The notes beneath the pieces were generated by a model. The model made no database searches. It was not told the origin of the DNA and saw only the letters and a program-made list of their open reading frames with translations. Below are positions 12,530-64,000 of a stretch of DNA of 64,000 bases, piece after piece (position 1 is the first letter of the stretch; every line of letters begins with the position of its first letter). This DNA is from an uncultured bacterium (lineage in GTDB: Bacteria; Eisenbacteria; RBG-16-71-46), in assembly GCA_964434945.1 (NCBI GenBank), contig CAYSWZ010000073.1:13938-77937 (forward strand), given 5' to 3'. A program made the position numbers and the translations under genes.

Positions 12530-12530
12530 C

Positions 12531-20394: not shown

Positions 20395-20404
20395 GGAACC
20401 GTCG

Positions 20405-25187: not shown

Positions 25188-25573
25188 GAGCGACCTCCCA
25201 TGGTCATGGGGCGGGGGTGCAGATGGCCTGGGGGGCGGGGATCTTGAGGCATCCCTTCTGCTCGGCGTGGAGTACGTGCGATGAAGCGGCTGAGCCGTGC
25301 TTTGACGTGGTACCCCTTGCGGGGTCCACCAAGCGCTGCACGCGGTCCATGCCGCACGCAGGTCAGCCATCGAGCATGTTGGCATTGACGTTCAGCGTGC
25401 GGAAGTCAAATCTGCCTGTTCACCGACTTCAAGCACAGATCGCAGGTCGGCCAGCGATGCCCAAGTAGCACTCAGTGGCATTGCACTAGCGGCGCAAGGT
25501 CGGACGCTGCGGGCTTCCACAGGGGACTCTGCGCCGCAGCCCGACGGACCAGGTCCGAACCGCCGAAACCCAT

Positions 25574-51548: not shown

Positions 51549-51618
51549 GGGCCGGCGGGGACTGTAGCAGGGGGGCCGCGCCGCATGGGCCCGGGCGGAT
51601 TGTGCTAGGACTCACGCC

Positions 51619-51783
51619 GTGGACACGAAGAAGCTCATCTGGTTCGGGGCGATCGCGGGTTCTGTCCTGGGCGGCTGCGTGCCGGGCCTCTGGCACGCGT
51701 CGGCGTTGTCGCTGTCCGGTCTCCTGTTCTCCACGATCGGCGGGCTGGCGGGCATCTGGCTCGCGTGGCGGTATACGCGCTGA
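51619..51783 (+). CDS. possible 54-aa two-TM membrane peptide
   Basis: GTG start 9 nt after AGGACTC. VDTKKLIWFGAIAGSVLGGCVPGLWHASALSLSGLLFSTIGGLAGIWLAWRYTR. Below the track length cutoff. GC3-rich codons are consistent with coding. Confidence 0.4.
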   Translation: MDTKKLIWFGAIAGSVLGGCVPGLWHASALSLSGLLFSTIGGLAGIWLAWRYTR

Positions 51784-51946
51784 CCGACTCCCAGACGCGA
51801 CGTCCCCAAGTCTCGCGGCCCGGATCCGCTTCCGGTGCCCCGGCCGGCTCGATCCCGGAGCGGCTCGGAGGCCGGACCGCATGGATAAAGCGCTTTCCTG
51901 TAGTGTCTTACGAAATACTGCGAATCCCGGGCGCGCCGGCGCGCTC

Positions 51947-52022: not shown

Positions 52023-52691
52023 ATGGAAAAAGGAGCCAGCGACCCCCGCACTGCTCCCCGTTGGCGTCGGCGAAAGGAATCACGGCCCGGAGAGATCCTG
52101 GCCGCGGCGCTCGACACGTTCGTCGAGCGAGGCTACGAATCGGCGCGTCTCGAGGACATCGCCCGGCGGGCCGGCTGTACGAAGGGCACCATCTTCCTCT
52201 ATTACGAGAGCAAAGCGGAGCTGTTCAAGGCCGTCATCCGCAATGTCATGGTGCCGTTGATCCAGGATACCGAGCAGACCATCGAAACGCACCAAGGCAC
52301 GTGCCGGGAACTGCTCGAGAAATTGTTGCGGATCCGCTGGGAACGCGCGACCGCGTCGCGGTTGTCGGGCCTCGCCAAGCTGCTGTTCGCCGAGACCGAG
52401 CGCTACCCGGATCTCGCAAAGTTCTACTACGAGGAGATTCATTCCCAGAGTCAGGCCTTGATCCAGCGCGCGTTCGACATGGGTGTCGCGCGCGGCGAGT
52501 TCCGGCCCCTCGATGGCGCGAACTTCGCGCGCGTCGCCATCGCCCCCATCGTATTCGCCAGCATCTGGAGACATTCCTTTGGCCCCGTCGTGGATCGAGC
52601 GCTCGATTCGGATGCGTATTTCAAGACCACTCTCGACATCCTGTTCAGTGGCATCGCGGCCACTTCGGTCCCCGAAGTCGCCGGAGGCTGA
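52023..52691 (+). CDS. TetR/AcrR family transcriptional regulator
   Basis: N-terminal HTH ILAAALDTFVERGYESARLEDIARRAGCTKGTIFLYYESKAELF. 222 aa. Confidence 0.9.
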   Translation: MEKGASDPRTAPRWRRRKESRPGEILAAALDTFVERGYESARLEDIARRAGCTKGTIFLYYESKAELFKAVIRNVMVPLIQDTEQTIETHQGTCRELLEKLLRIRWERATASRLSGLAKLLFAETERYPDLAKFYYEEIHSQSQALIQRAFDMGVARGEFRPLDGANFARVAIAPIVFASIWRHSFGPVVDRALDSDAYFKTTLDILFSGIAATSVPEVAGG

Positions 52692-54117
52692 TCGCCGCGC
52701 GCCGCGAAACGGTGCCGTCCTCGCGCTGGTCGCGGTCCTCGCCCTGACCGGGGCGGCGCGGGCGGACCGGGCATCGTCGCGGGATTCGGCGGCCCCGAAG
52801 GCCGGCGCGCCGCGTGCGACGGCGGCTCCCGCGACCCCCGCCCCGTCTCCGTCCGCGCTGCGGCTCACGCTCGCGGACGCGGTGCGGATCGCCGCCGCGG
52901 AATCGCCCTCGGCGCGCGAGGCCGCGCTGCGTGCCGTCCAGGCGGAGCGGAAGGTGGGCGAGTCGTTCGGCGCGCTGCTGCCTTCGCTCACCGGCGTGAC
53001 CACGTTCTCGAACCACACCTTCAACCTGACGGCGCAGGGCATCCCCTTCCCGGCGATTCCCGGGCTTCCGCCGGTCCCCGAGATCATCGGTCCCATCGAC
53101 AACGCGGACGCGCGCGTGTACGTGAAGCAGACGCTGCTGAGCATGACCGACATGAAGAAGGTGCAGGCCTCCCAGTTCGGGGCGCACGCGGGACGCGCGG
53201 ACCAGCAGGCCGCCGCCGAGGCCGCGGCGCAGGCGGGGGCGCTGGCATGGTTGCGCGCGGCGCGGACCGAGGCGCTGGTGAGCGCGCGAACGCAGGAGCT
53301 GGCACTCGCCGTCGAGCTGCTGCGGCTGGCGCGGGAGCAGCAGGCCGCGGGCGTTTCGCCCGCCATCGACACGACGCGCGCGAGCACGCAGGTGGCCGCC
53401 TCCCAGGGCGCCCTGCTCGTGGCCGAGAACCAGCGCGATCGGGCGCGGCTCGACCTCGGGAGGTCGCTCGGGCTGCAGCCGTCCGCCGATCCGGTGCCGG
53501 CCGATTCGCTCGGCGACGCGTCTGCCGCCACCGACGTACCCACCGATCCCGGGGACGCGCTGGCGCTCGCGCTCACGCAGCGCCCGGACCTTGCGGGCGA
53601 GCACGCGCGCGTCGAGAAGGCCCAGGCGGAGAAGCGCGCCACGTCGCTCGAACGCGTGCCGCGGCTGGAGGCCACCGCCGACTGGGGCATGTCGGGACTG
53701 CACACGAGCGACTGGCAGGGCACGCGGGCGTATGCGGTCGGCCTCACGCTGCCGCTGCTCGACGGCGGCTATCGCGAGGCGCGCATCGGCGAGCAGGAGG
53801 CGCTGATCGGCGAGGCCGCGGTGCACGAGCGCGACCTGCGCGACCAGGTCGCCGTGGACGTGCAGGGGGCTCTGCTCGACCTGTCGTCCGGGGTCGATCA
53901 GCTCCGGGTGGCCAGCGAGCAGCTGCGGCTCGCGGAAGAAGAGGTGGCGCAGGCGAGCGAGCGCTTCACGAACGGAGTGGCCGGCAACATCGAAGTGATC
54001 AACGCGCAGTCCTCACTGCTGCGCGCGCACGATACCGAGATCGACGCGCGCTACGCGCTCGCCGCGGCCCGTGTGGCGCTGGCACGCGCCGCGGGTGTCG
54101 CGCGCCAACTGCACTGA
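52612..54117 (+). CDS. TolC-like outer-membrane efflux protein
   Basis: Signal-like AVLALVAVLALTGAARA. Two OEP repeats (LTLADAVRIAAAESP..., LDLGRSLGL..., YALAAARVALARAAG). The start is uncertain: the first in-frame ATG (52612) overlaps the TetR 3' end by 80 nt, and no ATG/GTG/TTG lies nearer the signal peptide. Confidence 0.75.
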   Translation: MRISRPLSTSCSVASRPLRSPKSPEADRRAPRNGAVLALVAVLALTGAARADRASSRDSAAPKAGAPRATAAPATPAPSPSALRLTLADAVRIAAAESPSAREAALRAVQAERKVGESFGALLPSLTGVTTFSNHTFNLTAQGIPFPAIPGLPPVPEIIGPIDNADARVYVKQTLLSMTDMKKVQASQFGAHAGRADQQAAAEAAAQAGALAWLRAARTEALVSARTQELALAVELLRLAREQQAAGVSPAIDTTRASTQVAASQGALLVAENQRDRARLDLGRSLGLQPSADPVPADSLGDASAATDVPTDPGDALALALTQRPDLAGEHARVEKAQAEKRATSLERVPRLEATADWGMSGLHTSDWQGTRAYAVGLTLPLLDGGYREARIGEQEALIGEAAVHERDLRDQVAVDVQGALLDLSSGVDQLRVASEQLRLAEEEVAQASERFTNGVAGNIEVINAQSSLLRAHDTEIDARYALAAARVALARAAGVARQLH

Positions 54118-54129
54118 ACGAGGAGACCC

Positions 54130-55242
54130 ATGAGCGCCACTGTCGAACGTCCGTCCGAAGTCGCCCGCCCGCGGCCGACCGCACCCCCCGAACCGGTTCC
54201 GGCGGCCGCCGCGCCGCCGGGCCCGGAGCGTCCTCAGCCCGCCACGCGGCCGAACCGCATCCCCGTGATCGTGCTCGGAACGCTGGCGCTGATCGCGCTG
54301 GCATTCGGGTTCAACCGCTGGCGCTGGGGACTCACGCACGTGAGCACCGATGACGCGCAGGTCGAAGGGCACATCGTGCCGACGCTGGCACGCGTGAACG
54401 GTTTCGTCGCGGAAGTGGCGGTGCGCGAGAACGACAACGTCAGCCTGGGACAGCTGCTGGTCCGGCTCGACGACCGCGAATTCGCCGCGCGTCTCGCGCA
54501 GGCGGAGGCCGACGTGCAGTCGGCGCTCTCGGCGCAAGGCGTGCGCGGGCACGTCGGCCAGGCCGAGGCGCAGCTCGCGGCGGCGCGCGCCGCCGTGGTG
54601 CAGGCCGAGGCCAACGCGACGCAAGCACACCAGGACCTCGAACGCGCGCAGCGGCTCGCCGCGCGGGGGATCGTGAGCAGCGCCCAGCTCGATGCCGAAG
54701 TCACCGGCTCGGCGGGGGCGGACGCCGCGCTCGATGCCGCCCGCAAGCAGGTGCAGGCCGCAGAAGCCGGGCTGAGCGGCGCCTCGGCGCGGGTCAACTC
54801 GGTGCAGGCCGCGCGCGATCGCGCCGCGCTCGACCTGTCGTACACGCGCATCGTCGCCCCGTGCAGCGGCGTCGTGAGCCGCAAGACGGTCGAGGTCGGG
54901 CAGTACGTACAGGCCGGGCAGCCGCTCATGAGCGTCGTGCCGCTCGACGACATCTGGGTGGTGGCGAACCTCAAGGAGACCGAGATCCGCGACGTGACCC
55001 CGGGCGACAAGGCCGAGATCGAGGTGGATGCCTACCCGGGCCGTAAGTTCACCGGTCACGTCGAGAGCCTGAGCCCCGCGACCGGCGCGCGCTTCTCCCT
55101 GCTCCCGCCCGACAACGCGACCGGGAACTTCACCAAGGTCGTGCAGCGCATCCCGGTGCGCATCCGGGTGGACGGCCCGGTGGACCCGGTGCATCCGCTG
55201 CGGCCGGGGATGAGCGTCAACGCCACGGTCGTGACGAAGTAG
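54130..55242 (+). CDS. HlyD/EmrA-type membrane fusion protein
   Basis: N-terminal TM (IPVIVLGTLALIALAFGF), TDDAQVEGHIVPTLARVNGFV, a coiled-coil segment, YTRIVAPCSGVVSRKTVEVGQYVQAGQPLMSVVP and FTKVVQRIPVRI. Confidence 0.9.
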   Translation: MSATVERPSEVARPRPTAPPEPVPAAAAPPGPERPQPATRPNRIPVIVLGTLALIALAFGFNRWRWGLTHVSTDDAQVEGHIVPTLARVNGFVAEVAVRENDNVSLGQLLVRLDDREFAARLAQAEADVQSALSAQGVRGHVGQAEAQLAAARAAVVQAEANATQAHQDLERAQRLAARGIVSSAQLDAEVTGSAGADAALDAARKQVQAAEAGLSGASARVNSVQAARDRAALDLSYTRIVAPCSGVVSRKTVEVGQYVQAGQPLMSVVPLDDIWVVANLKETEIRDVTPGDKAEIEVDAYPGRKFTGHVESLSPATGARFSLLPPDNATGNFTKVVQRIPVRIRVDGPVDPVHPLRPGMSVNATVVTK

Positions 55243-55245
55243 CGC

Positions 55246-56832
55246 ATGTCGTCCGCGACCGCCGTGATGGATCCCGCCCGCGCGCTGGATCCCTCCTATC
55301 CGTTTCGCTGGATCATCGCCGTCACCGTCACGCTGGCGTCGATCCTCGAGATCCTCGACACCAGCATCGTGAACGTGGCCATCCCGCACATGATGGGATC
55401 GCTCGGCGCGACGCTCGACCAGATCACGTGGGTCTCCACGGGCTACATCGTCGCCAACGTCATCGTGCTGCCGGTCACGGGCTGGATGTCGGCCTATTTC
55501 GGACGGCGCCGGTATTTCGCCGGTTCGATCGCTCTGTTCACGATCTCCAGCATCCTGTGCGGCAACTCCCACACGCTGGTCGAGCTGGTGGTGTTCCGCA
55601 TCATCCAGGGCCTGGGCGGCGGCGCGCTGTTGTCGACCGCGCAGGCCACGCTGTACGAGGTGTTCCCGCCCGAGGAGTACGGCGGCGCCATGGCGATCTT
55701 CGGACTCGGCGTCATGGTCGGGCCCACGCTCGGGCCGACGCTCGGCGGCTGGATCACCGACACCTGGTCGTGGCCGTGGATCTTCTACATCAACGTGCCG
55801 TTTGGAGCGTTGGCGTTCGTGCTGTCGCTGGCGTACGTGCGCAATTCGCAGTTCGCGCGCCGTGTCGCGTCCGTGGACTGGACCGGGCTGGCGCTGCTCG
55901 CGATCGGCATCGGTTCCCTGCAGACGCTGCTCGAGCGCGGCGAGCGGCTGGACTGGTTCGGATCGGGCGAGATCGTCACCTATGCGGTGGTGAGCACGGT
56001 CTCGCTGGCGGCATTCGTATGGCACGAGCTGCGCACGGCGCACCCGGTCATCGACCTCCGCATCCTCACGAACCGGCAATTCGGCACCGGCTGCATCGTG
56101 GGCGGGATTCTCGGGCTGTGCCTGTACGCCACCGTGTTCGTGCTGCCGGTCTACCTGCAGCGCTCGCTCGGATTCACCGCGAATCAGACCGGCATGGTGA
56201 TCCTGCCCGGCGCGCTCGCCAGCGCGTTCACCATGGCGATCATGGCGCGCACGCTCGGCCGCGTGGACGGCCGGCGCATCGCGGCGGTCGGAGCGGTGAT
56301 GTTCTCGTTCGCGATGTGGCAGTGGTCGCAGTTCACGCTGCTGAGCGGCATCGGCGACTTCTTCTGGCCGCTCATCGTGCGGGGCGTGTCGCTGGGCCTG
56401 GTGTTCATCCCCCTCAACAATCTCGCGGTGTCCGAGCTGCCCATGACCCAGATCGGCGCGGCGACCGGGCTCTACAACCTGATGCGCCAGCTCGGGGGGA
56501 GCATCGGCATCGCGCTGTCCGCGAATGCCATCGCGCGCTTCACCGCCGAGAGCCGCGCGGCGCTGGCGGCGCACCTGTCCATGAACGACCCGAACGTCCA
56601 GATGCGGCTCGACGGCATCGCCCGCAGCCTCGTGGCCCGCGGCGCTCCCGCAGCGGTGGCGCGTACCGACGCGCTCGCCGCGCTGTCGGGCGAGGTCCTG
56701 CGCCAGGCGTCGATGCTGGCGTTCGAGAAGGTGTTCCTGCTGTTCGGACTGTCGTTCCTGCTCGCCGTCCCGCTCATCCTGTCGCTGCGCTGGCAGCGCG
56801 GCGGGCGCGGCGGCGCCGTGGAGGCGCATTGA
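55246..56832 (+). CDS. MFS transporter, DHA2 (EmrB/QacA) 14-TM drug-efflux family
   Basis: LEILDTSIVNVAIPHM, GWMSAYFGRRRYF and WPWIFYINVPFG are hallmark DHA2 motifs. 528 aa. Confidence 0.9.
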   Translation: MSSATAVMDPARALDPSYPFRWIIAVTVTLASILEILDTSIVNVAIPHMMGSLGATLDQITWVSTGYIVANVIVLPVTGWMSAYFGRRRYFAGSIALFTISSILCGNSHTLVELVVFRIIQGLGGGALLSTAQATLYEVFPPEEYGGAMAIFGLGVMVGPTLGPTLGGWITDTWSWPWIFYINVPFGALAFVLSLAYVRNSQFARRVASVDWTGLALLAIGIGSLQTLLERGERLDWFGSGEIVTYAVVSTVSLAAFVWHELRTAHPVIDLRILTNRQFGTGCIVGGILGLCLYATVFVLPVYLQRSLGFTANQTGMVILPGALASAFTMAIMARTLGRVDGRRIAAVGAVMFSFAMWQWSQFTLLSGIGDFFWPLIVRGVSLGLVFIPLNNLAVSELPMTQIGAATGLYNLMRQLGGSIGIALSANAIARFTAESRAALAAHLSMNDPNVQMRLDGIARSLVARGAPAAVARTDALAALSGEVLRQASMLAFEKVFLLFGLSFLLAVPLILSLRWQRGGRGGAVEAH

Positions 56833-56917
56833 TCCTGCGCCCGGCACCCGGGCGTCACGGGCGCGGTCGTCCGCCGCGCGCGGGCATCGGCATCGCGTCC
56901 GGCGCTCCGAGACGCGC

Positions 56918-57280
56918 GTGAGCCGCGATGCCACGAACATCGCGCTCGCGGTCCTCACCGTGCTGCTGCTCGCGGTCGGCGGCCCCTATCTCGCGGACCA
57001 CCTGCGCCGGCCCGCCGGGTTGCCGGTGACCCGCGCCCTGCCCGCGGTCCAGGCAGGGCAGAGGCGGGTCACGCTCGACGTGTCGGGGATGTATTGTGCG
57101 AATTGCGCCTCGCGTGTCACCCGAGAACTCGAGTCGATCCCGGGGGTCGTGGCGTGTGACGTGGACGTGCGTGCCCACCGGGCCACGGTCGTGTGCGAGC
57201 ACCAGTTGGCCGATACCGCACTGGTGGCGGCGGTGGCCCGTGCCGGCAGCGTGTACCGGGCGCAGGTGTCGGGTCACTAG
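56918..57280 (+). CDS. membrane-anchored heavy-metal-associated (HMA) domain protein
   Basis: GTG start. One TM helix (IALAVLTVLLLAVGGPYL), then HMA fold with VTLDVSGMYCANCASRVTRELESIPGVVACDVD (CxxC metal site). Confidence 0.75.
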   Translation: MSRDATNIALAVLTVLLLAVGGPYLADHLRRPAGLPVTRALPAVQAGQRRVTLDVSGMYCANCASRVTRELESIPGVVACDVDVRAHRATVVCEHQLADTALVAAVARAGSVYRAQVSGH

Positions 57281-57384
57281 ACGTCACCGATCGGGCCGAC
57301 TCACGTTCGCCGCCTGCCCGGAGCTCCGGCCCGGAATCAGCCGGGACTGCGGTCCGCCCGCGTCCGCGTAGTATCCTGTGCAGG

Positions 57385-59769
57385 ATGACCATGACGCGTG
57401 CGTTCCATCATCACGGCTCGGGCGGCGGCGCTCCCATGCGCGCCGAGCCCGCGGGCCCCGATCACCTGCCGGTGGTCGGGGATGATCCCGGTTGCCTCGA
57501 AATCCTCGCCGACCGGCTGCGCGAGCGCCCGGGCATCGTCGCAATCGAGGCGGACTTCAAGGACAACACGCTCACGGTCCGCTACCTGCCGGCGCTCGTC
57601 ACACCCGACGAGCTGAATGCGCTCGCGGACGACGTGGGCGCGATGTTCTCGCAGCGGGTGACCGCGTGCGAGCGTCGCGAGACGCTCGACGCGTGCGAAG
57701 CCTGCGCGCTGCGGCTCGGACACCTGGATTCGGGGGCCGCCGCCGAGTTCCATGCCGCCGCGACGCGCGGTCGCGTCTCGTTCTCGCGCCTGCTGCAGCC
57801 GGATGAGAGCGTCGAGGTGGTGCGCCCGCTCACGAACAAGCCGTGGGGCGCGCGCCTCACGCACAGCGAGCAGGAGGAGCGCTCCGAGGGTCGCGCCATG
57901 GCCGTGCTCACCGGCATGTGCCTCGTGCTGCTCGTGGCCGGCAGCATCTGCGATCGGCTGCACACCCCCCCGCCGCTCGCGACCGGGCTGCTGCTGGCGT
58001 CCGCGCTCACGGGGGGCTGGTTCACCGCGCGCAGCACGTTCGCCGCGCTCCGGAGGTTCGAGTTCGACGTCAACCTGCTCATGCTGCTCGCCGCAGCGGG
58101 CGCCGCTTCGATCGGCTACGTGGCCGAGGCCGCGGTGCTGATGTTCCTGTTCTCGCTCAGCAACACGCTCGAGGTGTACACCATGGGCCGCACCCGGCAC
58201 GCGCTGCGCGCGCTGCTCGAGTTGCGGCCGGCGCGCGCGCTGGTGCGGCGCGACGGGCGCGAGATCGAGGTCGAGGCCGACGCGGTGCGGGTGGGGGAGA
58301 CGGTCATCGTCAAGCCGGGCGAGGCGATCGCCGTGGATGGAACGGTCACGTCCGGGGAGTCGCTCGTGGATCAGTCGAGCCTCACCGGGGAGTCGGTTCC
58401 GGTCACGAAGCAGGCGGGTGACAAGCTGTTCGCGGGCACGCTGAACCAGCAGGGCGCGCTCGAACTCATCGCGACGCGGGTCGCCGCGAACAGCGCACTC
58501 GCGCGCATCGTCGCGCTGGTGCAGGAGGCACAGGAGAAGAAGTCGCGCGCCGAGGAGCTGGCCGAGGTGGCCGGCCGCAGCTACACGGTCGTGGTCATGG
58601 TCGCGGCCGGCCTCATGCTCGTGCTGCCGCCGCTCGTGTTCGGGCACGACTGGAAGACGTCGCTGTACCGCGCCATGACGCTGCTCGTGGTCGCCTCGCC
58701 GTGCGCGCTGGTGATCGCCACCCCCGCCACGGTGCTGTCGGCGATCGCGAACGCCGCGCGCAACGGCATCCTGTTCAAGGGCGGCGCGTTCATCGAGGCG
58801 CTCGGCCGCGTGCGCATCGTGGCGTTCGACAAGACCGGGACGCTCACGCACGGCCGCTTCGAGGTGACCAACGTGATCGCCGTGACCGGCGCCGGATCGG
58901 ACGACCTGCTGGGCTGGGCCGCGACCGCGGAGAAGCGCTCGCCGCATCCGCTGGCGCAGGCCGTGGTGCGGGCGGCCGAGGGGCGCGGCCTCACGGTGAA
59001 CGCCGCGGAGTCGCTCACCAATCACCTCGGCAAGGGCCTGGTCGCGATGTCCTGCGGCACGAGCATCGAGGTGGGCACGCCGGGCTTGTTCGCGGCGCTG
59101 GGCGTGCGGCCGCCGGAGGCCGTTCAGGAGCGGGTGCGGCAGCTCGCCGGCGAGGGCAAGACCGCCATGATCGTGCACCGCGGCGCCGCGTGGGGAGTCA
59201 TCGCCGCGGCCGACCGCGTACGGCCCGCCGCGGCCGCCACGGTGCGCGCGCTGCGAGCCGCCGGCATCCAGCGGATGGCGCTGCTGTCCGGCGACAGCGA
59301 GGCGACGGTGCGCGCGATCGGCGGACAGACCGGGGTCGAGGAACTGCACGGCAAGCTGCTGCCCGAGGACAAGGTGCGGGTCATCGGCGAACTCGAGCAG
59401 CGGTTCGGGCCGTCCGCGATGATCGGCGATGGCGTCAACGATGCGCCGGCCCTGGCGCGCGCGTCGGTCGGGATCGCGATGGGCGGCATCGGCAGCGACG
59501 CGGCCATGGAGAGCGCCGACGTCGTGCTCATGGGCGACGACCTCGCGGCGCTGCCGTACGCCATCGATCTCGCCCAGCGCGCGCGCCGCGTGGTGGTGCA
59601 GAACCTGTTGATCGCCACCGGGGTGATGGCGGTGCTGGTGAGCTGGGTGTTCGCGGGCCAGTTCACGCCGCTCGGGGCGCTGAAGCTTCCGGTGGCGGTG
59701 TCCGGACACGAAGGCAGCACCGTCGTGGTCATCCTGAACGGCCTGCGCCTGCTGCGTGGCCGGCGCTGA
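57385..59769 (+). CDS. heavy-metal P1B-type ATPase with SPC membrane motif (P1B-4-like)
   Basis: TGES (SLTGESVPV), VVASPCALVIATP (SPC rather than CPC), DKTGTLT, MIGDGVNDAPAL. The N-terminal ~150 aa has a ferredoxin-like region without CxxC (IVAIEADFKDNTLTVRYLP) and a CExxxxxxCExC stretch. Confidence 0.9.
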   Translation: MTMTRAFHHHGSGGGAPMRAEPAGPDHLPVVGDDPGCLEILADRLRERPGIVAIEADFKDNTLTVRYLPALVTPDELNALADDVGAMFSQRVTACERRETLDACEACALRLGHLDSGAAAEFHAAATRGRVSFSRLLQPDESVEVVRPLTNKPWGARLTHSEQEERSEGRAMAVLTGMCLVLLVAGSICDRLHTPPPLATGLLLASALTGGWFTARSTFAALRRFEFDVNLLMLLAAAGAASIGYVAEAAVLMFLFSLSNTLEVYTMGRTRHALRALLELRPARALVRRDGREIEVEADAVRVGETVIVKPGEAIAVDGTVTSGESLVDQSSLTGESVPVTKQAGDKLFAGTLNQQGALELIATRVAANSALARIVALVQEAQEKKSRAEELAEVAGRSYTVVVMVAAGLMLVLPPLVFGHDWKTSLYRAMTLLVVASPCALVIATPATVLSAIANAARNGILFKGGAFIEALGRVRIVAFDKTGTLTHGRFEVTNVIAVTGAGSDDLLGWAATAEKRSPHPLAQAVVRAAEGRGLTVNAAESLTNHLGKGLVAMSCGTSIEVGTPGLFAALGVRPPEAVQERVRQLAGEGKTAMIVHRGAAWGVIAAADRVRPAAAATVRALRAAGIQRMALLSGDSEATVRAIGGQTGVEELHGKLLPEDKVRVIGELEQRFGPSAMIGDGVNDAPALARASVGIAMGGIGSDAAMESADVVLMGDDLAALPYAIDLAQRARRVVVQNLLIATGVMAVLVSWVFAGQFTPLGALKLPVAVSGHEGSTVVVILNGLRLLRGRR

Positions 59770-59788
59770 CGCGCGCGCCGGCAACCGC

Positions 59789-60457
59789 TCAGTCGAGCTT
59801 CGTCACCACGACGTTGTCGTAGTACACGGTGCACTGCCCGACGCCACCGGTGTACGCGGGCAGCGCGATGCGCCCCGACCGCCGCGCGTTGCGCGCGTCC
59901 GGCCGGTCGAGCTTGAGCTCGCCGTTCACGAACACGCGGAAGCGGTTCCCGCTCGCGACGACGCGCAGGTGGTTCCACGCCCCGTTCGCGTTCGTCGCGC
60001 TCGCCCGTCCCATCGGCCAGTCGCGAAGGTACATGAGCACGTCCTGGTAGCTGCCGCCGCGCAGGTCCACGCCGATGCCCGATGCGCCCGCCACGCGCAC
60101 GATCACGCCCTTGTCCACGCCGCGCATCATGCACATGTCGAGATCCACGGCGATGTTGGTCCACGACGTGTCGCCGGCATAGAGCAGCGAGCGCAACTGC
60201 TTCTGGTCGGGCAGGTCGGCGCGCAGCATGCCGTGCGACACCGACCACACGTCGAGCCGGTCCGGTGTCCAGCCCTTGAGCGTGCCGGAGGAGAAATCAT
60301 CGGCGAACAGCACCCCGTGCCCCGGCGTCTTCAAGGGTGGGGCGGGAGACGGCCTCGCGAAACGCGTCCCGTCGGTCGCGGTGCCCACGACCAGCAGCGT
60401 CGCGCCGGTGAGCAACGTAGAGCGAAACAGGTTCGCAATCATTCCGACCGAAAACAT
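59789..60457 (-). CDS. DUF1080 / 3-keto-disaccharide hydrolase-like (concanavalin-type) domain protein
   Basis: N-terminal hydrophobic anchor MFSVGMIANLFRSTLLTGATLLVVG. LFADDFSSGTLKGWTP...WSVSHGMLRAD...WNHLRVVASGNRFRVFVNGELK...GRIALPAYTGGVGQCTVYYDNVVV fits the DUF1080 pattern. Confidence 0.7.
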   Translation of the reverse strand: MFSVGMIANLFRSTLLTGATLLVVGTATDGTRFARPSPAPPLKTPGHGVLFADDFSSGTLKGWTPDRLDVWSVSHGMLRADLPDQKQLRSLLYAGDTSWTNIAVDLDMCMMRGVDKGVIVRVAGASGIGVDLRGGSYQDVLMYLRDWPMGRASATNANGAWNHLRVVASGNRFRVFVNGELKLDRPDARNARRSGRIALPAYTGGVGQCTVYYDNVVVTKLD

Positions 60458-60623
60458 GGCACTCCGCGGTTCCGGCGTCCAACCCGGCGCCGGTCCCCCG
60501 CGGTATCGGCGGCCGTCCGGGGGAGCCTGAGGTCGTGCCCCCGGCGGGCCGGGCTTGCGGGGCCGCAAGTGCGGCCGTGACTTGCCGGGCTCGCGCGGCG
60601 GGTGGATCGCCGGCCAGGCCCCG

Positions 60624-62288
60624 CTACAGTCGGACGCTGATGCCGGCCTGCACCTGCCGGGTGGTCGCGGCGAGGCCGCGATCGAGCTCGTAGCCGCCGT
60701 TCACGTACCAGCGACCGCCGAGCGACAGGTCCAGGTCCACTTCCTGCCAGCGTTCGCTGTCGTCGATGCCGGACAGCACATCGCGGGTGCCTCGCGTACC
60801 GAAGTTGAACTCGAAGTGTGACAGGGGCCATGGATCGAATCCCGCCCCCAGCGACAGCAGGTGGCTGTCCACGCCGGGGCTCGTGAATGCCGAATACCGC
60901 GCGTGGGTCGAGGTCTGCCAGCGCGTGATCCGGTAGAACTCGCCACTCACGGTCCACGTGTCGGAGAGATCGCCGCCGGAGCCGCTGCGATATTCACCGC
61001 TGCCGCGGACGTGCTGCGCCAGCTCGAGCACGCCGCCAAGCCACGCGCCCTGGCGGTAGCGGTCGTCGAACTGCGTCTCCGGCGTCTCGCGATCGAGCCA
61101 CAGGCGCACGTTTCGCCGATTGTCGTAGCCGGACTGGAGCGCGAACTGCTGCGTGACCGGCACGCGCACGGTGGCGAACGTGCTGGTCCACGATAGCGGG
61201 GGCTCGCCCATGGCGCGCTTCCACCCGCTGTTCACGTCCACTTCCTGCGCGAGCGAGGCGCTGCCGCCCCGCGAGAACCACCAGCCCTGCGCGAACAGGA
61301 AGTCCCGATTCAGCTCGTGGCCGGCCCGCGAGGTGACGCCGCCGGTGGACAGCGACCAGCGCCGCGCCGAGAGCGGCGCCTGGTGCCATTCCGCGAACAC
61401 GCCGCCCTCGACCAGGTCCCCCGACAGGCGCATCCGCACCGGATCCGGCTGGGTGCCGGTGAACGCGCCGAGCGTGCGATGATCGTTCCCCCATTCGAGC
61501 AGCGCGCCGTCGAACAGGCTGATCGAGGCGAGCGTCGGCGAAGTCTGGCGCCCGAGCGTGAGGCGGCGATGGTCGTCGCGGTCGCGGAACGTGGTCGTTG
61601 CCCGGTAGACGCGGGAGAACTGGTCCGTCTCCGTGCCGCTCGAGCTGGTGCTGACCGTGCGCCGGCCGCGGATGTCGAGCGCCACGTCGGCGTGGCCGTC
61701 CAGCGCGTCCCGGCCATCCATCCGCAGCTCGAGCCCGGGCTGCTGGTACGCGTTGCTGCCCTCGGTCCGGACGCCGAGCCAGCTGCCTCCGACGCGGCCG
61801 CGCCAGCGGGGGCTCCGGATCGCGGCCCGGGACCGCGGCGGGGGCAGCACGGCCGACGTGCGGATGGAGTCACCGTTCACGGTCGCGGCTCGCAGGCTGT
61901 CCTGCGCGGCGGCTCCTCGTGCGGGATTGCTGCGAAACGACACGGGATCGCCGAGCGCGAGCGGCTGGCGGGTCCACAGCGTGTCGCACGAGGCGCGGCG
62001 CGAGGACACGAACGTGACGCGCAGCCGCGCGATGGTGGCGTCGCCACGGGTCACGTCCAGGCTGTCGCCCACGCCGAGCCCGTCGGCCTGCCCCGCATCC
62101 ACGTAGACGCTCCCGCCCGCCAGGTAGCTGATGCGGGTGCTGTGGAGGGCCCCCGCGGGCGCCGGGGCGTCGGCGGGGACGAGCCGTGCGGGCGCGTTCG
62201 TCGACGCGCCGGCCGGACCCGCGCCGGCGGCCACCACGAACGCGATCAATGCGAATCGAGCGGCGAGCGTGCGCAGGTCGGGCCTCAT
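60624..62288 (-). CDS. putative large outer-membrane beta-barrel protein coupled to multiheme cytochromes
   Basis: ATG at 62288 overlaps the cytochrome stop (ATGA). Signal MRPDLRTLAARFALIAFVVAAGAGPAGA. 554 aa with a long run of alternating-polarity strands rich in G/S/T/R/W/Y and no Cys-rich or enzymatic motif. The track fuses it to an out-of-frame shadow (60624..63431). Confidence 0.65.
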   Translation of the reverse strand: MRPDLRTLAARFALIAFVVAAGAGPAGASTNAPARLVPADAPAPAGALHSTRISYLAGGSVYVDAGQADGLGVGDSLDVTRGDATIARLRVTFVSSRRASCDTLWTRQPLALGDPVSFRSNPARGAAAQDSLRAATVNGDSIRTSAVLPPPRSRAAIRSPRWRGRVGGSWLGVRTEGSNAYQQPGLELRMDGRDALDGHADVALDIRGRRTVSTSSSGTETDQFSRVYRATTTFRDRDDHRRLTLGRQTSPTLASISLFDGALLEWGNDHRTLGAFTGTQPDPVRMRLSGDLVEGGVFAEWHQAPLSARRWSLSTGGVTSRAGHELNRDFLFAQGWWFSRGGSASLAQEVDVNSGWKRAMGEPPLSWTSTFATVRVPVTQQFALQSGYDNRRNVRLWLDRETPETQFDDRYRQGAWLGGVLELAQHVRGSGEYRSGSGGDLSDTWTVSGEFYRITRWQTSTHARYSAFTSPGVDSHLLSLGAGFDPWPLSHFEFNFGTRGTRDVLSGIDDSERWQEVDLDLSLGGRWYVNGGYELDRGLAATTRQVQAGISVRL

Positions 62289-63571
62289 CGCGTGTGGCAC
62301 GAGTAGCAGGCGGCGCTGTCGTACCGGTAGCCACTCCTGCCGGAGTGTTCCGAGTCTGTGGAAGCCTGGTTGTCGTGAGGGTGGCAGCCGAGGCAGTTGA
62401 ACGCCGCGAAGTTCGTGGGCGAGTTGTGACAATCGCTGCACGCGTTCCAGCGCCCGGCATGACCCCCCGAGTAGATGCGGAAGTACTGCTGGTCGTGATT
62501 GAACGTGGCGCCGGTCCATGCGGTCGTGGTGTGGCAGCTGGCGCACGCCGACGCGGCAAACCCGGCGGCGGGGTGATTCGGGACCGCCGCGTTGTAGTCG
62601 GCGATGTGGCACGACTGGCACGCGGTGGGCTTCCCCTGGTAGACGCCGTCCGAGTGACAGCTCTGGCAGGTGGCGGTGACGTGCGCGCCGGTGAGCGGGA
62701 ACGCCGTCGCGTTGTGGTCGAAAGCCGCGCCGGTCCACGCGGTGGTGTTGTGGCAGCTGGCGCAGGCACTCGCGGCGAACCCGGACGAGGCGTGCGGCGG
62801 CTGGGCGGAGTTGTATTCGTTCATGTGGCACGACGCGCAGTCCGAGGGCGTGCCCTGGAAGCGACCACCCGGGTGGCAGCTCTCGCAGGTCGCCGTGCGG
62901 TGCGCGCCGGTCAGCGGGAACCCGGTCCGGGAGTGGTCGAAGCGGGCGGAGTTCCACGTGTTGGGGTTGTGGCAGGACTGGCACTCGGTGGGGAACCCGC
63001 CCGCGAGGTGGTCGGGCGCCTTCGCCGAGCGGTAGGCGTCCATGTGGCACGCGCTGCATTCCGCCTGCGTGCTCACGAACTGCAACTGGCCCTGCGCCGC
63101 GGGCGGGTGACAGCTCTCGCAGTCGAGCGCCGCGTGGCCCCCGGTGAGTGGGAACCGGGTGAGCTGGTGGGCGCGGAACATGGGCCCGCGGTCGACGAAG
63201 CTGCGCGCGGAGTGACAGCGTGAGCAGTCCGTTCCCATCTCGCCGCGGTGCGGATCCTGGTGGCACGATGCGCACAGCGTCTGCGATGCGGAGAAGTCGA
63301 GCGACTGGTGACAGCCGAGGCACGCCGCCGCGGCGTGCGCGCCGTCGAGCTTGAAGCCGTACTTCGCGTGATCGAACTTTCGGCTCACCTGGGCGGGCTT
63401 CCAGCCGGCCGCCCCGTGGCACAGGCTGCATTCCTCATGGAACCGGCCGTGCGGGTTCTCCACGCGCGGACGCGTCGCGGCCCGGGCGGCCCCGAGCACC
63501 AGCAGCGGCAGCACCACCAGCGCCGCGACGACGAGCCGCCGAAATCGATGGAGAGGGGTCGCGTGGGTCAC
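62285..63571 (-). CDS. multiheme c-type cytochrome (16 CXXCH motifs)
   Basis: 16 CXXCH sites counted (CSLCH, CLGCH, CASCH, CSRCH, CESCH, CSACH, CQSCH, CESCH, CASCH, CASCH, CQSCH, CQSCH, CASCH, CSDCH, CLGCH, CYSCH). Repeated ~73-aa three-heme modules (FDHxxTxFPLTGAHxTATCxSCH). Signal LVVAALVVLPLLVLGAARA. GTG 63571 is preceded by GAGGTGA; alternative ATG at 63613. Confidence 0.85.
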   Translation of the reverse strand: MTHATPLHRFRRLVVAALVVLPLLVLGAARAATRPRVENPHGRFHEECSLCHGAAGWKPAQVSRKFDHAKYGFKLDGAHAAAACLGCHQSLDFSASQTLCASCHQDPHRGEMGTDCSRCHSARSFVDRGPMFRAHQLTRFPLTGGHAALDCESCHPPAAQGQLQFVSTQAECSACHMDAYRSAKAPDHLAGGFPTECQSCHNPNTWNSARFDHSRTGFPLTGAHRTATCESCHPGGRFQGTPSDCASCHMNEYNSAQPPHASSGFAASACASCHNTTAWTGAAFDHNATAFPLTGAHVTATCQSCHSDGVYQGKPTACQSCHIADYNAAVPNHPAAGFAASACASCHTTTAWTGATFNHDQQYFRIYSGGHAGRWNACSDCHNSPTNFAAFNCLGCHPHDNQASTDSEHSGRSGYRYDSAACYSCHTR

Positions 63572-63575
63572 GGGA

Positions 63576-64000
63576 TCACCTCGGGGTTGGGATTTGCGCG
63601 CGGGAACGCCCATGGCGCTCCCGCTCGGGCGCGGGCGCGCCGGACGAATCCGGCGAGGCGGGCGCGTGACAGCTCTCGCACCGGCTGGGGGTCGGCCGGT
63701 AGGTCACCAGCGTCGCTCCGCCCGCGGAGCGCGTCTCTCGGTGGCAGCCGGCGCACGGCGTGTGCACGTGCGCGCCCTGGAGCCGGAACGCCGAGTCGCG
63801 ATCGTGATCGAACCTGCTCGCGGGCACGAACGAGCGGAAGTCGTGGCAGCTCTCGCACGCGCCCTTGTCCTTCCGCACCGCGAACTGGCCGCGGTGGACG
63901 TCCTCGTGGCAGTCCCTGCACGCGCGCGACTTGCTGTCGAAGCGGAGCGATCGGAGGTCCGTCGCGCCCTTGAGCGTGGACCCGCCCGGGGGCTTCTCCA
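63576..64000 (-). CDS. multiheme c-type cytochrome (5' end outside window)
   Basis: Frame is open to the window edge. Visible part has 4 CXXCH (CRDCH, CESCH, CAGCH, CESCH), including the paired pattern CRDCHEDVHRGQF. The stop lies 4 nt before the next cytochrome gene. Confidence 0.7.
   Translation of the reverse strand, partial: EKPPGGSTLKGATDLRSLRFDSKSRACRDCHEDVHRGQFAVRKDKGACESCHDFRSFVPASRFDHDRDSAFRLQGAHVHTPCAGCHRETRSAGGATLVTYRPTPSRCESCHAPASPDSSGAPAPERERHGRSRAQIPTPR

What the first reader, a model, noticed from the sequence alone, without database searches (positions are those of the whole stretch)
60624..64000. Porin-cytochrome-like trio: two multiheme cytochromes translationally coupled to a 554-aa outer-membrane barrel
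On the minus strand, three genes are tightly linked:
- A partial multiheme cytochrome (at least 4 CXXCH visible) stops 4 nt before the next gene.
- A 16-heme secreted cytochrome follows. Its stop overlaps (ATGA) the start of the third gene.
- The third gene encodes a signal-peptide protein with barrel-like strand periodicity and no cofactor motifs.

The gene order (cytochrome, then barrel) and the tight coupling mirror MtrA-MtrB, PioA-PioB/MtoA-MtoB and Geobacter Pcc conduits for trans-outer-membrane electron transfer. Differences from those systems are a 16-heme protein built from repeated three-heme modules (FDHxxTxFPLTGAHxTATCxSCH) and a barrel that does not obviously resemble MtrB at sequence level.

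Neighbours include a DUF1080 lectin-fold protein, a metal-exporting ATPase and, 30 kb away, a NirK island. An extracellular or metal redox role is therefore plausible but unproven.
Basis: partly seen in the sequence, partly recalled or inferred. Interest (0 to 1): 0.65.

Follow-up and report, generated by a model that had tools for sequence, protein, structure and literature searches.

The report
PCC3-like porin–cytochrome electron conduit
These three genes are the outer end of a conserved, experimentally untested five-gene wire of heme proteins that probably carries electrons from inside the cell, across both membranes, to the outside; it is widespread in common soil bacteria.

Summary
On the minus strand lie the last 140 aa of a multiheme cytochrome (4 CXXCH), a 428-aa secreted cytochrome with 16 CXXCH, and a 554-aa protein whose start overlaps the cytochrome's stop (ATGA).

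The 554-aa protein models as a 22-strand outer-membrane barrel with a small N-terminal beta domain. It has no Pfam, NCBIfam or PDB sequence relative. Its family occurs in Eisenbacteria, Gemmatimonadota, Acidobacteriota, Krumholzibacteriia and Bacteroidota. In all 72 loci with enough upstream DNA it follows a multiheme cytochrome gene.

Syntenic relatives show what lies beyond the window end:
- a 5-helix inner-membrane protein with two WX3HX13H motifs and SGXXG;
- a membrane-anchored Fe-S/FAD/NAD(P) protein;
- a 20- or 23-heme cytochrome;
- a cytochrome that varies in steps of three hemes (8 to 61 or more);
- the barrel.

This matches the published definition of the uncharacterised 'PCC3' porin-cytochrome cluster of Proteobacteria, plus a conserved NAD(P)-linked flavoprotein. 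The flavoprotein suggests outward, NAD(P)H-fed electron export; that direction is inferred, not shown. It is not an MtrAB member.

A cultured host (Emticicia oligotrophica, plasmid pEMTOL02) makes it testable.

The parts
63576..63998 (-). C-terminal 140 aa (4 CXXCH) of the 20-heme periplasmic multiheme cytochrome. The gene runs off the window end.
   Evidence: Translation. It matches the 20-heme cytochrome profile at 148 bits. It is 81% identical (114/140) to residues 467-609 of the 609-aa, 20-CXXCH protein of the syntenic locus L091. Pfam Cytochrome_C7 scores just below cutoff on this fragment.
62285..63571 (-). 16-heme secreted cytochrome of 428 aa, 26.8 aa per heme, with no lipobox. This is the variable-length cytochrome of the system.
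   Evidence: 16 CXXCH. Pfam Cytochrome_C7 9e-19, Cytochrom_c3_2 1e-12, MtrC/MtrF domain II/IV 1e-9. It is 89% identical to a 19-heme orthologue in L091 that has one more repeat. No PDB sequence relative.
62504..62941 (-). Two tandem 73-aa three-heme (c7-like) modules, residues 211-356 of the 16-heme protein. This is the unit whose copy number varies between relatives.
   Evidence: Heme spacing 32-16-25 is repeated. In relatives, 52 of 67 complete orthologues have 3n+1 hemes, the common counts being 13, 16, 19, 22, 25 and 28.
60624..62288 (-). 554-aa outer-membrane protein: signal peptide, N-terminal beta domain, disordered linker, 22-strand barrel. Its ATG overlaps the cytochrome's stop (ATGA).
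   Evidence: No Pfam, NCBIfam or PDB sequence hit. More than 170 homologs, all named 'hypothetical'.
61932..62147 (-). N-terminal small beta domain of the barrel protein (residues 48-119), conserved across phyla. Its location is not determined; it could be periplasmic or a plug.
   Evidence: Strands E48-119 in the model. Invariant Y55, Y62, G66, G74, D75 and a nearly invariant C101. It aligns to the Emticicia and Terriglobia homologs.
60630..61808 (-). 22 beta strands of the barrel (residues 161-553).
   Evidence: DSSP on the model, with block pLDDT mostly 85-94. Ideal-barrel geometry for n=22 gives a C-alpha diameter of about 39-40 Å.
61041..61130 (-). Most conserved stretch of the family (GYDNRRNVRL...TPETQFDDRYRQGAW, residues 387-416). 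It lies in a loop and short helix between strands, not in a membrane-facing strand.
   Evidence: Invariant G387, D389, R391, V394, L396, D399, D409 and G414. The model places a low-confidence loop at 393-398 and a helix at 403-410. The search for related loci chose these motifs as the family patterns.
59792..60436 (-). DUF1080 / 3-keto-disaccharide-hydrolase-like secreted protein. It is a lineage-specific downstream neighbour and not part of the conserved core.
   Evidence: Pfam PF06439 at 7.6e-12. It lies downstream of the barrel in 21 of 30 Eisenbacteria loci, in 0 of 23 Gemmatimonadota loci and in 1 of 13 Acidobacteriota loci.

Best explanation
The three genes are the distal end of a five-component electron conduit that spans the cell envelope. 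It is of the kind published as 'PCC3'.

**Composition, shown from syntenic relatives**
1. A roughly 330-aa inner-membrane protein (IMP) with five helices. Four invariant histidines form two WX3HX13H motifs, and there is an SGXXG motif.
2. A protein with an N-terminal membrane anchor, a ferredoxin-like Fe-S domain and a thioredoxin-reductase-like FAD/NAD(P)-binding domain.
3. A 20- or 23-heme cytochrome of constant size.
4. A cytochrome of c7-like three-heme modules whose number varies. It has 16 hemes here, 19 in an 89%-identical orthologue, and up to 61-64 elsewhere.
5. A 22-strand outer-membrane barrel, translationally coupled to cytochrome 4.

**Proposed mechanism, inferred**
- NAD(P)H is oxidised on the cytoplasmic face by the flavoprotein.
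- Electrons pass through its Fe-S clusters to two b hemes held by the IMP's four histidines, and so cross the inner membrane.
- The 20-heme cytochrome spans the periplasm.
- The variable cytochrome is held in, or threaded through, the barrel and extends outward to a poorly soluble acceptor such as Fe(III)/Mn(IV) minerals, humic material or possibly O2.

This route bypasses the quinone pool. Exporting electrons from the cytoplasm is favoured by the membrane potential and dissipates it. The system would therefore act as an electron sink or extracellular reductase, like the eukaryotic NOX/FRE enzymes, rather than as a proton-pumping respiratory chain.
For: **Anatomy**
- Gene anatomy and translational coupling.
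- Barrel model with 22 strands; only outer-membrane barrels as fold matches.

**Conservation of the barrel-cytochrome pair**
- 68 of 72 barrels have a cytochrome gene ending at the barrel start; the other four have cytochrome sequence slightly further upstream.
- The loci come from Eisenbacteria, Gemmatimonadota, Acidobacteriota and Krumholzibacteriia.
- Emticicia oligotrophica (Bacteroidota) plasmid pEMTOL02 carries IMP, NAD(P)-binding protein, a 23-heme and a 40-heme cytochrome, and a 538-aa homolog of the barrel (hhalign probability 97.9%, E 3.8e-13).
- A Terriglobia variant carries the same parts in another gene order (hhalign probability 99.45%, E 4.5e-22).

**What lies beyond the window end**
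- L091 (barrel 80% identical) is syntenic with the window on the downstream side. Upstream it shows IMP, flavoprotein and a 20-heme cytochrome.

**Inner-membrane protein and flavoprotein**
- IMP motifs are invariant in 15 sequences from several phyla. They equal the published PCC3/PCC4 IMP signature (PMC5566968).
- The flavoprotein accompanies the IMP in 47 of 50 loci, in four different gene arrangements. Linkage that survives rearrangement argues for a functional tie.
- Its flavin domain is closest to the NADPH-dependent YpdA/Bdr enzymes, thioredoxin reductases and thioredoxin-reductase-like ferredoxin-NADP reductases.
- It has GxGxxG and GGGDSA nucleotide-binding motifs, and positive residues follow its single N-terminal helix, which predicts a cytoplasmic bulk.

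**Cytochromes**
- Heme numbers step by three: 52 of 67 complete orthologues have 3n+1 hemes. The inner cytochrome is fixed at 20 or 23 hemes. This fits one partner of fixed span and one of free length.

**Related module and literature**
- Trios without a porin (Fe-S protein, IMP-like 'iron reductase', cytochrome c3) sit on Variovorax and Bradyrhizobium plasmids. They show the same cytoplasm-to-periplasm logic.
- A 2026 survey independently noted ferredoxin-NADP reductase genes next to 7 of 11 porin-cytochrome clusters with porins of about 20 strands (PMC13264449).
Against: - No experiment exists for this system or for PCC3.
- The IMP model has no significant fold match in the PDB (best E 1.4). 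Pfam Ferric_reduct scores only E 0.17-0.44. Heme b binding therefore rests on the histidine motifs alone.
- Neither cytochrome has a lipobox, and nothing shows that either one reaches the cell surface.
- I could not inspect the model's coordinates. Whether the N-terminal domain plugs the barrel, and how wide the lumen is, remain unknown.
- The direction of electron flow is inferred from the partner protein and from thermodynamics only.
- The IMP, the flavoprotein and most of the 20-heme cytochrome are not in the window itself. Their presence in this organism is inferred from synteny with an 80%-identical relative.
- Homology to the reference proteobacterial PCC3 proteins could not be tested.
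Confidence: 0.55

Rival explanations
1. The architecture is the same but the flow is inward. The conduit takes electrons from extracellular Fe(II), Mn(II) or a mineral and passes them through the IMP to the quinone pool, or on to NAD(P)+. This is what was originally hypothesised for PCC3 in iron oxidisers.
For: PCC3 was discovered in neutrophilic Fe(II) oxidisers and was modelled as an uptake route to the quinone pool. Multiheme conduits such as Mtr/Mto can run in either direction (established knowledge of MtrCAB/MtoAB).
Against: - Both PCC3 clusters of Sideroxydans ES-1 were down-regulated on Fe(II).
- The conserved partner here is an NAD(P)-type flavoprotein, not a quinone-site protein.
- Reducing NAD(P)+ (about -320 mV) with Fe(II) by moving electrons inward against an inside-negative membrane potential is strongly uphill (inference from standard potentials).
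- In the karst survey, most genomes that carry a porin-cytochrome cluster lack a carbon-fixation pathway.
Confidence: 0.15
2. The cytochromes stay in the periplasm as an electron store or relay. The barrel is an ordinary porin or substrate channel that is merely co-transcribed with them.
For: Both cytochromes have plain Sec signal peptides and no lipobox. Foldseek matches include substrate channels of the OprD/Occ and AlgE type.
Against: - The barrel-cytochrome pair is kept together in all 72 informative loci, through changes of gene order and across five phyla.
- The start-stop overlap is conserved.
- The barrel family's most conserved residues lie in an inter-strand loop and helix, which is not the pattern expected of a diffusion pore.
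- A cytochrome that varies from 8 to more than 60 hemes is hard to fit into a periplasm of fixed width.
Confidence: 0.12
3. The barrel is an usher-like export or assembly pore. It secretes the variable cytochrome, which may polymerise into an extracellular filament, rather than acting as a static insulating sheath around it.
For: The best Foldseek matches are the PapC and FimD usher pores (E 4e-9 to 1e-7). The protein has an extra N-terminal beta domain, as ushers have accessory domains. The cytochrome is not a lipoprotein and so needs some route out.
Against: TM-scores are low (0.3-0.4) and similar to those for unrelated 18-strand channels, so the match is generic. The model has 22 strands, not the 24 of ushers. 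No chaperone-like gene is conserved in the cluster.
Confidence: 0.08

Closest known systems
PCC3 porin-cytochrome c cluster (He et al. 2017, PMC5566968; Slit_0867-0870 and Slit_1446-1449 of Sideroxydans lithotrophicus ES-1; Leptothrix cholodnii SP-6). Defined by bioinformatics only; function untested.
   Same: - A porin gene lies next to two very heme-rich cytochromes.
- One cytochrome is of nearly fixed size: 21/24/27 hemes in PCC3, 20/23 here.
- The other is variable and repeat-built: 10-35 or more hemes in PCC3, 8-61 or more here. It has 26-30 aa per heme and is rich in A/S/T/G.
- There is a roughly 300-aa inner-membrane protein with 5 helices, SGXXG, and two WX3HX13H motifs.
- The L. cholodnii PCC3 porin was predicted to have 22 transmembrane strands, the same number as in the model here.
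   Different: - PCC3 was reported only in Alpha-, Beta- and Gammaproteobacteria, as a four-gene cluster.
- Here the hosts are Eisenbacteria, Gemmatimonadota, Acidobacteriota, Krumholzibacteriia and Bacteroidota.
- A fifth gene, the Fe-S/FAD/NAD(P) protein, is conserved in 47 of 50 loci.
- The published model has inward flow to quinone; the flavoprotein here suggests outward flow from NAD(P)H.
- Sequence homology to the reference PCC3 proteins could not be tested.
MtrCAB / MtoAB / PioAB
   Same: The logic is the same: a periplasmic multiheme cytochrome is encoded directly upstream of an outer-membrane barrel, which lets electrons cross the outer membrane.
   Different: - The barrel has no hit to any Pfam family, including MtrB/PioB, and no similarity to any PDB chain at E<=10.
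- It has 22 strands against the 26 of MtrB.
- The cytochromes score 24 bits against a cutoff of 192 for the DmsE/MtrA decaheme family.
- They carry 16 and 20 hemes, not 10.
- There is no lipoprotein cytochrome.
Geobacter porin-cytochrome complexes (OmaB-OmbB-OmcB; ExtABCD and related) and c7-polymer cytochromes such as GSU1996
   Same: A barrel of about 20 strands is paired with periplasmic and outer cytochromes. The cytochromes are built from c7-type three-heme domains (Pfam Cytochrome_C7). The 12-heme GSU1996 is a chain of c7-like domains (from my own knowledge).
   Different: - The outer cytochrome here is not a lipoprotein.
- Heme counts are much higher and vary.
- The inner-membrane entry point is not a quinol oxidase of the ImcH/CbcL type. 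It is a four-histidine 5-helix protein with an NAD(P) flavoprotein.
- Only weak NCBIfam hits to Ext proteins (E>0.1).
Ferric-reductase-domain enzymes (eukaryotic NOX/FRE; bacterial MsrQ/YedZ)
   Same: The proposed working principle is the same. A cytoplasmic NAD(P)H/flavin module feeds two stacked b hemes, bound by histidine pairs on two helices, which move electrons outward across the membrane.
   Different: - The dehydrogenase is a separate, thioredoxin-reductase-like protein with Fe-S clusters. It is not a fused FNR-like domain.
- The IMP has 5 helices rather than 6.
- It fails the Pfam Ferric_reduct threshold (E 0.17-0.44).
- It has no fold match in the PDB.

Membership tests
PCC3 (He et al. 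2017) | Predicted outer-membrane beta-barrel (porin) gene adjacent to multiheme cytochrome genes | tested here: met
   22-strand model. ATGA overlap with the 16-heme gene. Adjacency holds in 68 of 72 loci strictly, and in all 72 with a slightly wider margin.
PCC3 (He et al. 2017) | 'Periplasmic' cytochrome of about 21 (21/24/27) hemes, built of repeats, with about 26-30 aa per heme | tested here: met
   Relatives have 20 hemes (27 loci) or 23 hemes (21 loci); L005 has 592 aa for 20 hemes. The window holds only the last 140 aa, 81% identical to the L091 20-heme protein.
PCC3 (He et al. 2017) | Second cytochrome with a large, variable number of hemes, low-complexity A/S/T/G-rich repeats, each repeat carrying heme sites | tested here: met
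   16 hemes, 26.8 aa per heme, 40% A+S+T+G, and 73-aa three-heme repeats. The range in the family is 8 to 61-64 hemes.
PCC3 (He et al. 2017) | Inner-membrane protein of about 300 aa with five helices, SGXXG on helix 4 and WX3HX13H on helices 3 and 5 | tested here: met
   W124/H128/H142, S164/G165/G168 and W297/H301/H315 are invariant in 15 sequences. Five hydrophobic helices. The gene lies beyond the window end; its presence is shown in the syntenic locus L091.
PCC3 (He et al. 2017) | Sequence homology to the reference PCC3 proteins (Slit_0867-0870; L. cholodnii) | not testable with these tools
   No reference sequence could be fetched. The paper's supplements carry no sequences. tblastn of the plasmid collection found no proteobacterial PCC3. 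Cluster look-ups returned almost no organism names.
PCC3 (He et al. 2017) | Four-gene composition; hosts are Proteobacteria | tested here: not met
   A fifth conserved gene, the Fe-S/FAD/NAD(P) protein, is present in 47 of 50 loci. The hosts are Eisenbacteria, Gemmatimonadota, Acidobacteriota, Krumholzibacteriia and Bacteroidota.
MtrAB / MtoAB / PioAB | Barrel of the MtrB/PioB family | tested here: not met
   No Pfam family at E<=1. The family profile finds no PDB chain at E<=10. The model has 22 strands.
MtrAB / MtoAB / PioAB | Decaheme cytochrome of the DmsE/MtrA family (TIGR03508) | tested here: not met
   24.1 bits against a cutoff of 192.2. The protein has 16 hemes, not 10.
Geobacter Pcc (OmaB/OmbB/OmcB, Ext) | Outer cytochrome is a lipoprotein (lipobox cysteine) | tested here: not met
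   The N-terminus ...LVLGAARAATRP has no cysteine.
Geobacter Pcc (OmaB/OmbB/OmcB, Ext) | Sequence homology of the porin and cytochromes to OmbB/OmaB/OmcB | not tested
   No reference sequences or profiles were on hand. Only weak NCBIfam ExtN/ExtO hits on the partial cytochrome (E 0.15-0.17).
Ferric reductase domain superfamily (PF01794) | Significant match to the FRD profile or fold | tested here: not met
   Pfam E 0.17-0.44, at 11-12 bits against a cutoff of 28. Foldseek of the IMP model against the PDB gives a best E of 1.4.
Ferric reductase domain superfamily (PF01794) | Two pairs of histidines spaced 13 apart on two transmembrane helices (bis-heme b site) | tested here: met
   H128/H142 and H301/H315 are invariant. 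Heme binding itself was not tested.

The most novel reading that the evidence does not exclude
This is a two-membrane bacterial counterpart of NADPH oxidase or ferric reductase. A dedicated NAD(P)H : extracellular-acceptor oxidoreductase sends cytoplasmic reducing equivalents straight out of the cell, through Fe-S clusters, two b hemes and 36 or more c hemes, without using the quinone pool. The length of its outer heme wire is tuned by gain and loss of three-heme modules. It would be common in abundant, mostly aerobic soil phyla (Gemmatimonadota, Acidobacteriota, Eisenbacteria, some Bacteroidota) that are not regarded as electroactive.
Probability: 0.35. Interest if true: 0.8.

Novelty: new variant of a known kind. 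Interest (0 to 1): 0.6.

Why it matters
Extracellular electron transfer is understood mechanistically in only a few Proteobacteria and Desulfobacterota. Here the same general design appears as a distinct, conserved five-gene system.

- **Distribution.** It occurs in phyla that dominate soils and aquifers. The inner-membrane component alone has 287 clusters at 50% identity with E<=1e-30, and 2,735 with E<=1e-3.
- **Entry point.** Electrons appear to enter from NAD(P)H rather than from quinol. If that is right, it changes how redox balancing, mineral and humic reduction, and possibly extracellular superoxide or iron acquisition should be budgeted for these organisms.
- **PCC3.** It gives the long-unassigned PCC3 family a testable direction and donor.
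- **Testability.** The cluster sits on a 100-kb plasmid of a cultured isolate, Emticicia oligotrophica DSM 17448, so the question can be addressed by genetics and biochemistry.

Tried and rejected
**The source contig**
1. An exact look-up of the window's barrel protein, to extend the contig, found nothing on record. The 80%-identical L091 was used instead.

**Attempts to fetch a genuine proteobacterial PCC3 locus for a direct profile comparison**
2. A homolog search with the IMP profile listed only close relatives.
3. The exhaustive representative search gave 150 unnamed proteins.
4. Three cluster look-ups gave almost no organism names.
5. The last homolog search, with P0391, landed in Terriglobia. 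It was useful but not proteobacterial.
6. tblastn of plasmids found only Emticicia and porin-less trios.
7. The paper's supplements hold no sequences.

**Fold and sequence searches that gave nothing specific**
8. Fold search of the IMP model to confirm a NOX/FRD fold gave no significant match. The FRD membership claim was dropped; only the histidine motif remains.
9. PDB sequence searches with the barrel profile, the IMP profile and both cytochromes found nothing.

**Context searches**
10. Promoter and terminator scan of 59500-64000 found nothing, which is uninformative at 72% GC.
11. Rfam and tRNA scans of the window found nothing.
12. One literature search with phylum names was too broad to be useful.

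**Rejected readings**
- MtrAB/PioAB membership.
- Nitrite- or hydroxylamine-reductase-type cytochromes.
- A functional link to the P-type ATPase or NirK. The ATPase is convergent and syntenic only within Eisenbacteria.
- The EET1-4 clusters of the 2026 peat preprint appear to be different systems, with 8-13-heme cytochromes.

Full report
**1. Observation**

The window has 68-74% G+C throughout, so long spurious ORFs occur in all frames.

- The minus-strand frame from 63998 to 63576 is open to the window end. It carries CRDCH, CESCH, CAGCH and CESCH.
- Four nucleotides after its stop, a GTG at 63571 (preceded by GAGG) opens a 428-aa protein. This protein has a Sec signal peptide and exactly 16 CXXCH motifs.
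- Its TGA overlaps the ATG of a 554-aa protein (62288..60624), which has a signal peptide and no heme motif.

**2. The 554-aa protein**

- It matches no Pfam or NCBIfam family at E<=1.
- A profile of 55 family members finds no PDB chain at E<=10.
- AlphaFold2 on that alignment gives mean pLDDT 80.6. The model has a signal helix, a small beta domain (residues 48-119), a disordered Ala/Pro/Ser linker (120-160) and 22 beta strands (161-553). Block pLDDT in the barrel part is mostly 85-94.
- Foldseek against the PDB returns only outer-membrane barrels: the PapC/FimD ushers, OprD/Occ channels and AlgE. TM-scores are 0.3-0.4, so the fold class is clear but there is no specific relative.
- The family consensus ends ...AGLSxRF, like the C-terminal signal of outer-membrane proteins.
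- Ideal-barrel geometry for 22 strands gives a C-alpha diameter of about 39-40 Å. That lies between an 18-strand channel (33 Å) and a 26-strand barrel such as MtrB (47 Å). I could not read coordinates, so the real lumen and the position of the N-terminal domain are unknown.
- The most conserved residues (GYDNRRNVRL...TPETQFDDRYRQGAW, 387-416) lie in a loop and short helix between strands. I read this as a sign of a specific partner rather than a diffusion pore. This is inference.

**3. Family and context**

The barrel has more than 170 homologs, all named 'hypothetical'. A scan of one genome per species found 178 relatives. Those fetched come from Candidatus Eisenbacteria (34-68% identity), Gemmatimonadota, Acidobacteriota, Krumholzibacteriia and Polarisedimenticolia.

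- **Barrel and cytochromes.** Of 72 barrel genes with at least 1.5 kb upstream, 68 have a multiheme cytochrome gene ending at the barrel start. The remaining four have cytochrome sequence ending slightly further upstream. That cytochrome is in turn preceded by a cytochrome with 20 (27 loci) or 23 (21 loci) CXXCH.
- **Variable cytochrome.** The barrel-proximal cytochrome ranges from 8 to 61 hemes by the strict count, and reaches 64 in L070. 52 of 67 complete genes have 3n+1 hemes. The window's 16-heme protein is 89% identical to a 19-heme orthologue in L091, so the repeat number changes between close relatives.
- **Two more conserved genes.** Profile searches of the fetched loci show a roughly 330-aa membrane protein (IMP) and a roughly 480-aa protein with an N-terminal helix, a ferredoxin-like Fe-S domain and a Pyr_redox_3/Pyr_redox_2 flavin domain. 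The flavoprotein accompanies the IMP in 47 of 50 loci. In two of the three exceptions the IMP lies about 1 kb from the locus edge. The flavoprotein occurs in four arrangements: between IMP and cytochrome, divergent upstream, upstream on the same strand, or after the barrel.
- **DUF1080.** The gene follows the barrel only in Eisenbacteria (21 of 30 loci, against 0 of 23 in Gemmatimonadota).
- **What the window cuts off.** L091, whose barrel is 80% identical, shares the window's downstream genes: DUF1080, P-type ATPase, HMA protein, MFS, membrane-fusion protein and outer-membrane efflux protein. Upstream it reads arginase | IMP 332 aa, flavoprotein 480 aa, 20-heme cytochrome 609 aa, 19-heme cytochrome 501 aa. 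The window's partial cytochrome is 81% identical to residues 467-609 of that 20-heme protein.

**4. Reach beyond these phyla**

- tblastn of the plasmid collection with the IMP hit pEMTOL02 of the cultured Bacteroidota isolate Emticicia oligotrophica DSM 17448. That plasmid carries ccsA, IMP (281 aa), an NAD(P)-binding protein (440 aa), a 23-heme cytochrome, a 40-heme cytochrome and a 538-aa hypothetical protein. The last is homologous to the barrel family (hhalign probability 97.9%, E 3.8e-13).
- A very large Terriglobia clade has the same parts in another order. There the barrel (hhalign probability 99.45%, E 4.5e-22) is fused to an N-terminal AMIN domain through a long Pro/Ala/Thr-rich linker.
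- Variovorax and Bradyrhizobium plasmids carry a smaller trio without a porin: a 2Fe-2S protein, an IMP-like 'iron reductase' and a cytochrome c3.
- The IMP profile finds 2,735 representatives at 50% identity with E<=1e-3, and 287 with E<=1e-30.

**5. Mechanism**

*Shown*
- The composition, coupling and conservation described above.
- The IMP has five hydrophobic helices and a helical domain between helices 4 and 5. By the positive-inside rule this domain should be cytoplasmic.
- W124/H128/H142, S164/G165/G168 and W297/H301/H315 are invariant in the IMP.
- The flavin domain is closest to the NADPH-dependent YpdA/Bdr enzymes, thioredoxin reductases and thioredoxin-reductase-like ferredoxin-NADP reductases. 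It has GxGxxG and GGGDSA motifs, and basic residues follow its single helix.

*Inferred*
- The four histidines bind two b hemes stacked across the membrane.
- The flavoprotein docks on the cytoplasmic face and feeds them from NAD(P)H.
- The constant 20/23-heme cytochrome spans the periplasm.
- The variable cytochrome sits in, or passes through, the barrel and extends outward.

*Direction of flow.* Moving electrons outward from NAD(P)H to Fe(III), Mn(IV), humics or O2 is downhill and is assisted by an inside-negative membrane potential. Moving them inward to NAD(P)+ from Fe(II) is strongly uphill. I therefore favour an outward, quinone-independent electron sink or extracellular reductase, working like NOX/FRE.

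*Caveats.* The IMP fails the Pfam Ferric_reduct threshold (E 0.17-0.44). Its model has no significant PDB fold match. So 'works like' is all I claim.

**6. Comparison with known systems**

- **PCC3.** He et al. 2017 (PMC5566968) defined PCC3 in Proteobacteria as four parts:
  - a porin;
  - an 'extracellular' cytochrome (median 34 hemes, A/S/T/G-rich repeats);
  - a 'periplasmic' cytochrome (median 21 hemes);
  - a roughly 300-aa IMP with five helices, SGXXG and two WX3HX13H motifs.

  Later work gives 21/24/27 and 10-35 hemes. The L. cholodnii porin was predicted to have 22 strands. Every published defining feature I could test is met. PCC3 is functionally unverified, and it was down-regulated on Fe(II) in ES-1.
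- **Differences from PCC3.** The host phyla differ, and a fifth gene, the flavoprotein, is conserved. Direct homology to reference PCC3 proteins could not be tested.
- **Recent literature.** A 2026 karst metagenome paper noted ferredoxin-NADP reductase genes next to 7 of 11 porin-cytochrome clusters with porins of about 20 strands. It suggested coupling but did not analyse it (PMC13264449); these may be the same system. The EET1-4 clusters of a 2026 peat preprint have 8-13-heme cytochromes and appear to be different.
- **Mtr/Mto/Pio and Geobacter Pcc.** MtrAB/MtoAB/PioAB membership fails on both the barrel and the cytochrome. Geobacter Pcc membership fails on the lipoprotein feature and was otherwise not tested.

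**7. Verdict**

It is best filed as a new variant of the PCC3 kind, in new phyla, with a conserved NAD(P)-linked entry module. Confidence that it is a trans-envelope porin-cytochrome conduit is about 0.7. Confidence in the full mechanism, including outward NAD(P)H-fed flow, is about 0.55 or lower. Interest is 0.6: the system is widespread and uncharacterised, carries a mechanistically distinctive component, and has a cultured host for testing.

Noticed in passing
L086 (NC_018749.1, Emticicia oligotrophica DSM 17448 plasmid pEMTOL02) 8842-21426: A cultured Bacteroidota isolate carries the whole system on a 100-kb plasmid. It is preceded by the cytochrome c biogenesis gene ccsA and followed by a GW-domain lipoprotein. 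Nearby on the other strand lie a sigma-70-family sigma factor, another outer-membrane barrel, a Rieske protein, DUF5777, YceI and a c-type cytochrome.
   Followed up: partly
L089 5342-9165 and L090 5269-9165 (Terriglobia): In this clade the barrel protein is about 1,298 aa. An N-terminal AMIN domain and a very long Pro/Ala/Thr-rich linker are fused ahead of the conserved beta domain and barrel. AMIN domains bind peptidoglycan in other proteins (my own knowledge). A conserved 279-aa hypothetical protein sits between the barrel and the IMP.
   Followed up: partly
L087 (Bradyrhizobium sp. BTAi1 pBBta01) 11270-13424 and 20363-23635; L088 (Variovorax sp. WDL1 plasmid 3) 9824-13510: These are trios without a porin: a 2Fe-2S protein, an IMP-like protein (annotated once as 'iron reductase') and a cytochrome c3 family protein. 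There are two copies on the Bradyrhizobium plasmid. In Variovorax the trio lies among copper-resistance genes. It looks like a minimal cytoplasm-to-periplasm version of the same idea.
   Followed up: no
L070 4167-9125, L079 5127-9914, L073 4908-9320: The barrel-proximal cytochromes here have 64, 61 and 58 CXXCH motifs, counted on stop-to-stop ORFs. They are among the most heme-rich proteins I have seen reported.
   Followed up: no
L035, L042 (second loci in the same Eisenbacteria MAGs as L025 and L029); L051, L061 (Gemmatimonadota): Some genomes carry an extra 12-heme cytochrome plus barrel pair with no IMP or 20-heme gene nearby. Others carry two cytochrome-barrel units in tandem behind one IMP. 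This suggests interchangeable outer modules on one inner module.
   Followed up: no
window 52483-59769: This block holds an outer-membrane efflux protein, a membrane-fusion protein, an MFS transporter, a small HMA (heavy-metal-associated) protein and a P-type ATPase. The ATPase is convergent with the DUF1080 gene. The block is syntenic in Eisenbacteria relatives (L004, L005, L091), but its linkage to the conduit does not extend to other phyla.
   Followed up: partly
window 62288..62147 region and alignment A1 (residue C101 of the barrel protein): The barrel protein's only cysteine lies in the N-terminal beta domain, in the motif SSRRASCDTL. It is conserved in at least 90% of the family. I have no explanation for it; it could be a metal, heme-thioether or disulfide partner.
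   Followed up: no
window 48727-51882 (-) and 22446-25385 (-): The first is a long ORF whose C-terminal part matches TldD/PmbA metallopeptidase. It is probably two adjacent genes, as in L001. The second is a 979-aa protein with DUF5122 beta-propeller repeats. No tRNA or Rfam family was found anywhere in the 64 kb.
   Followed up: no
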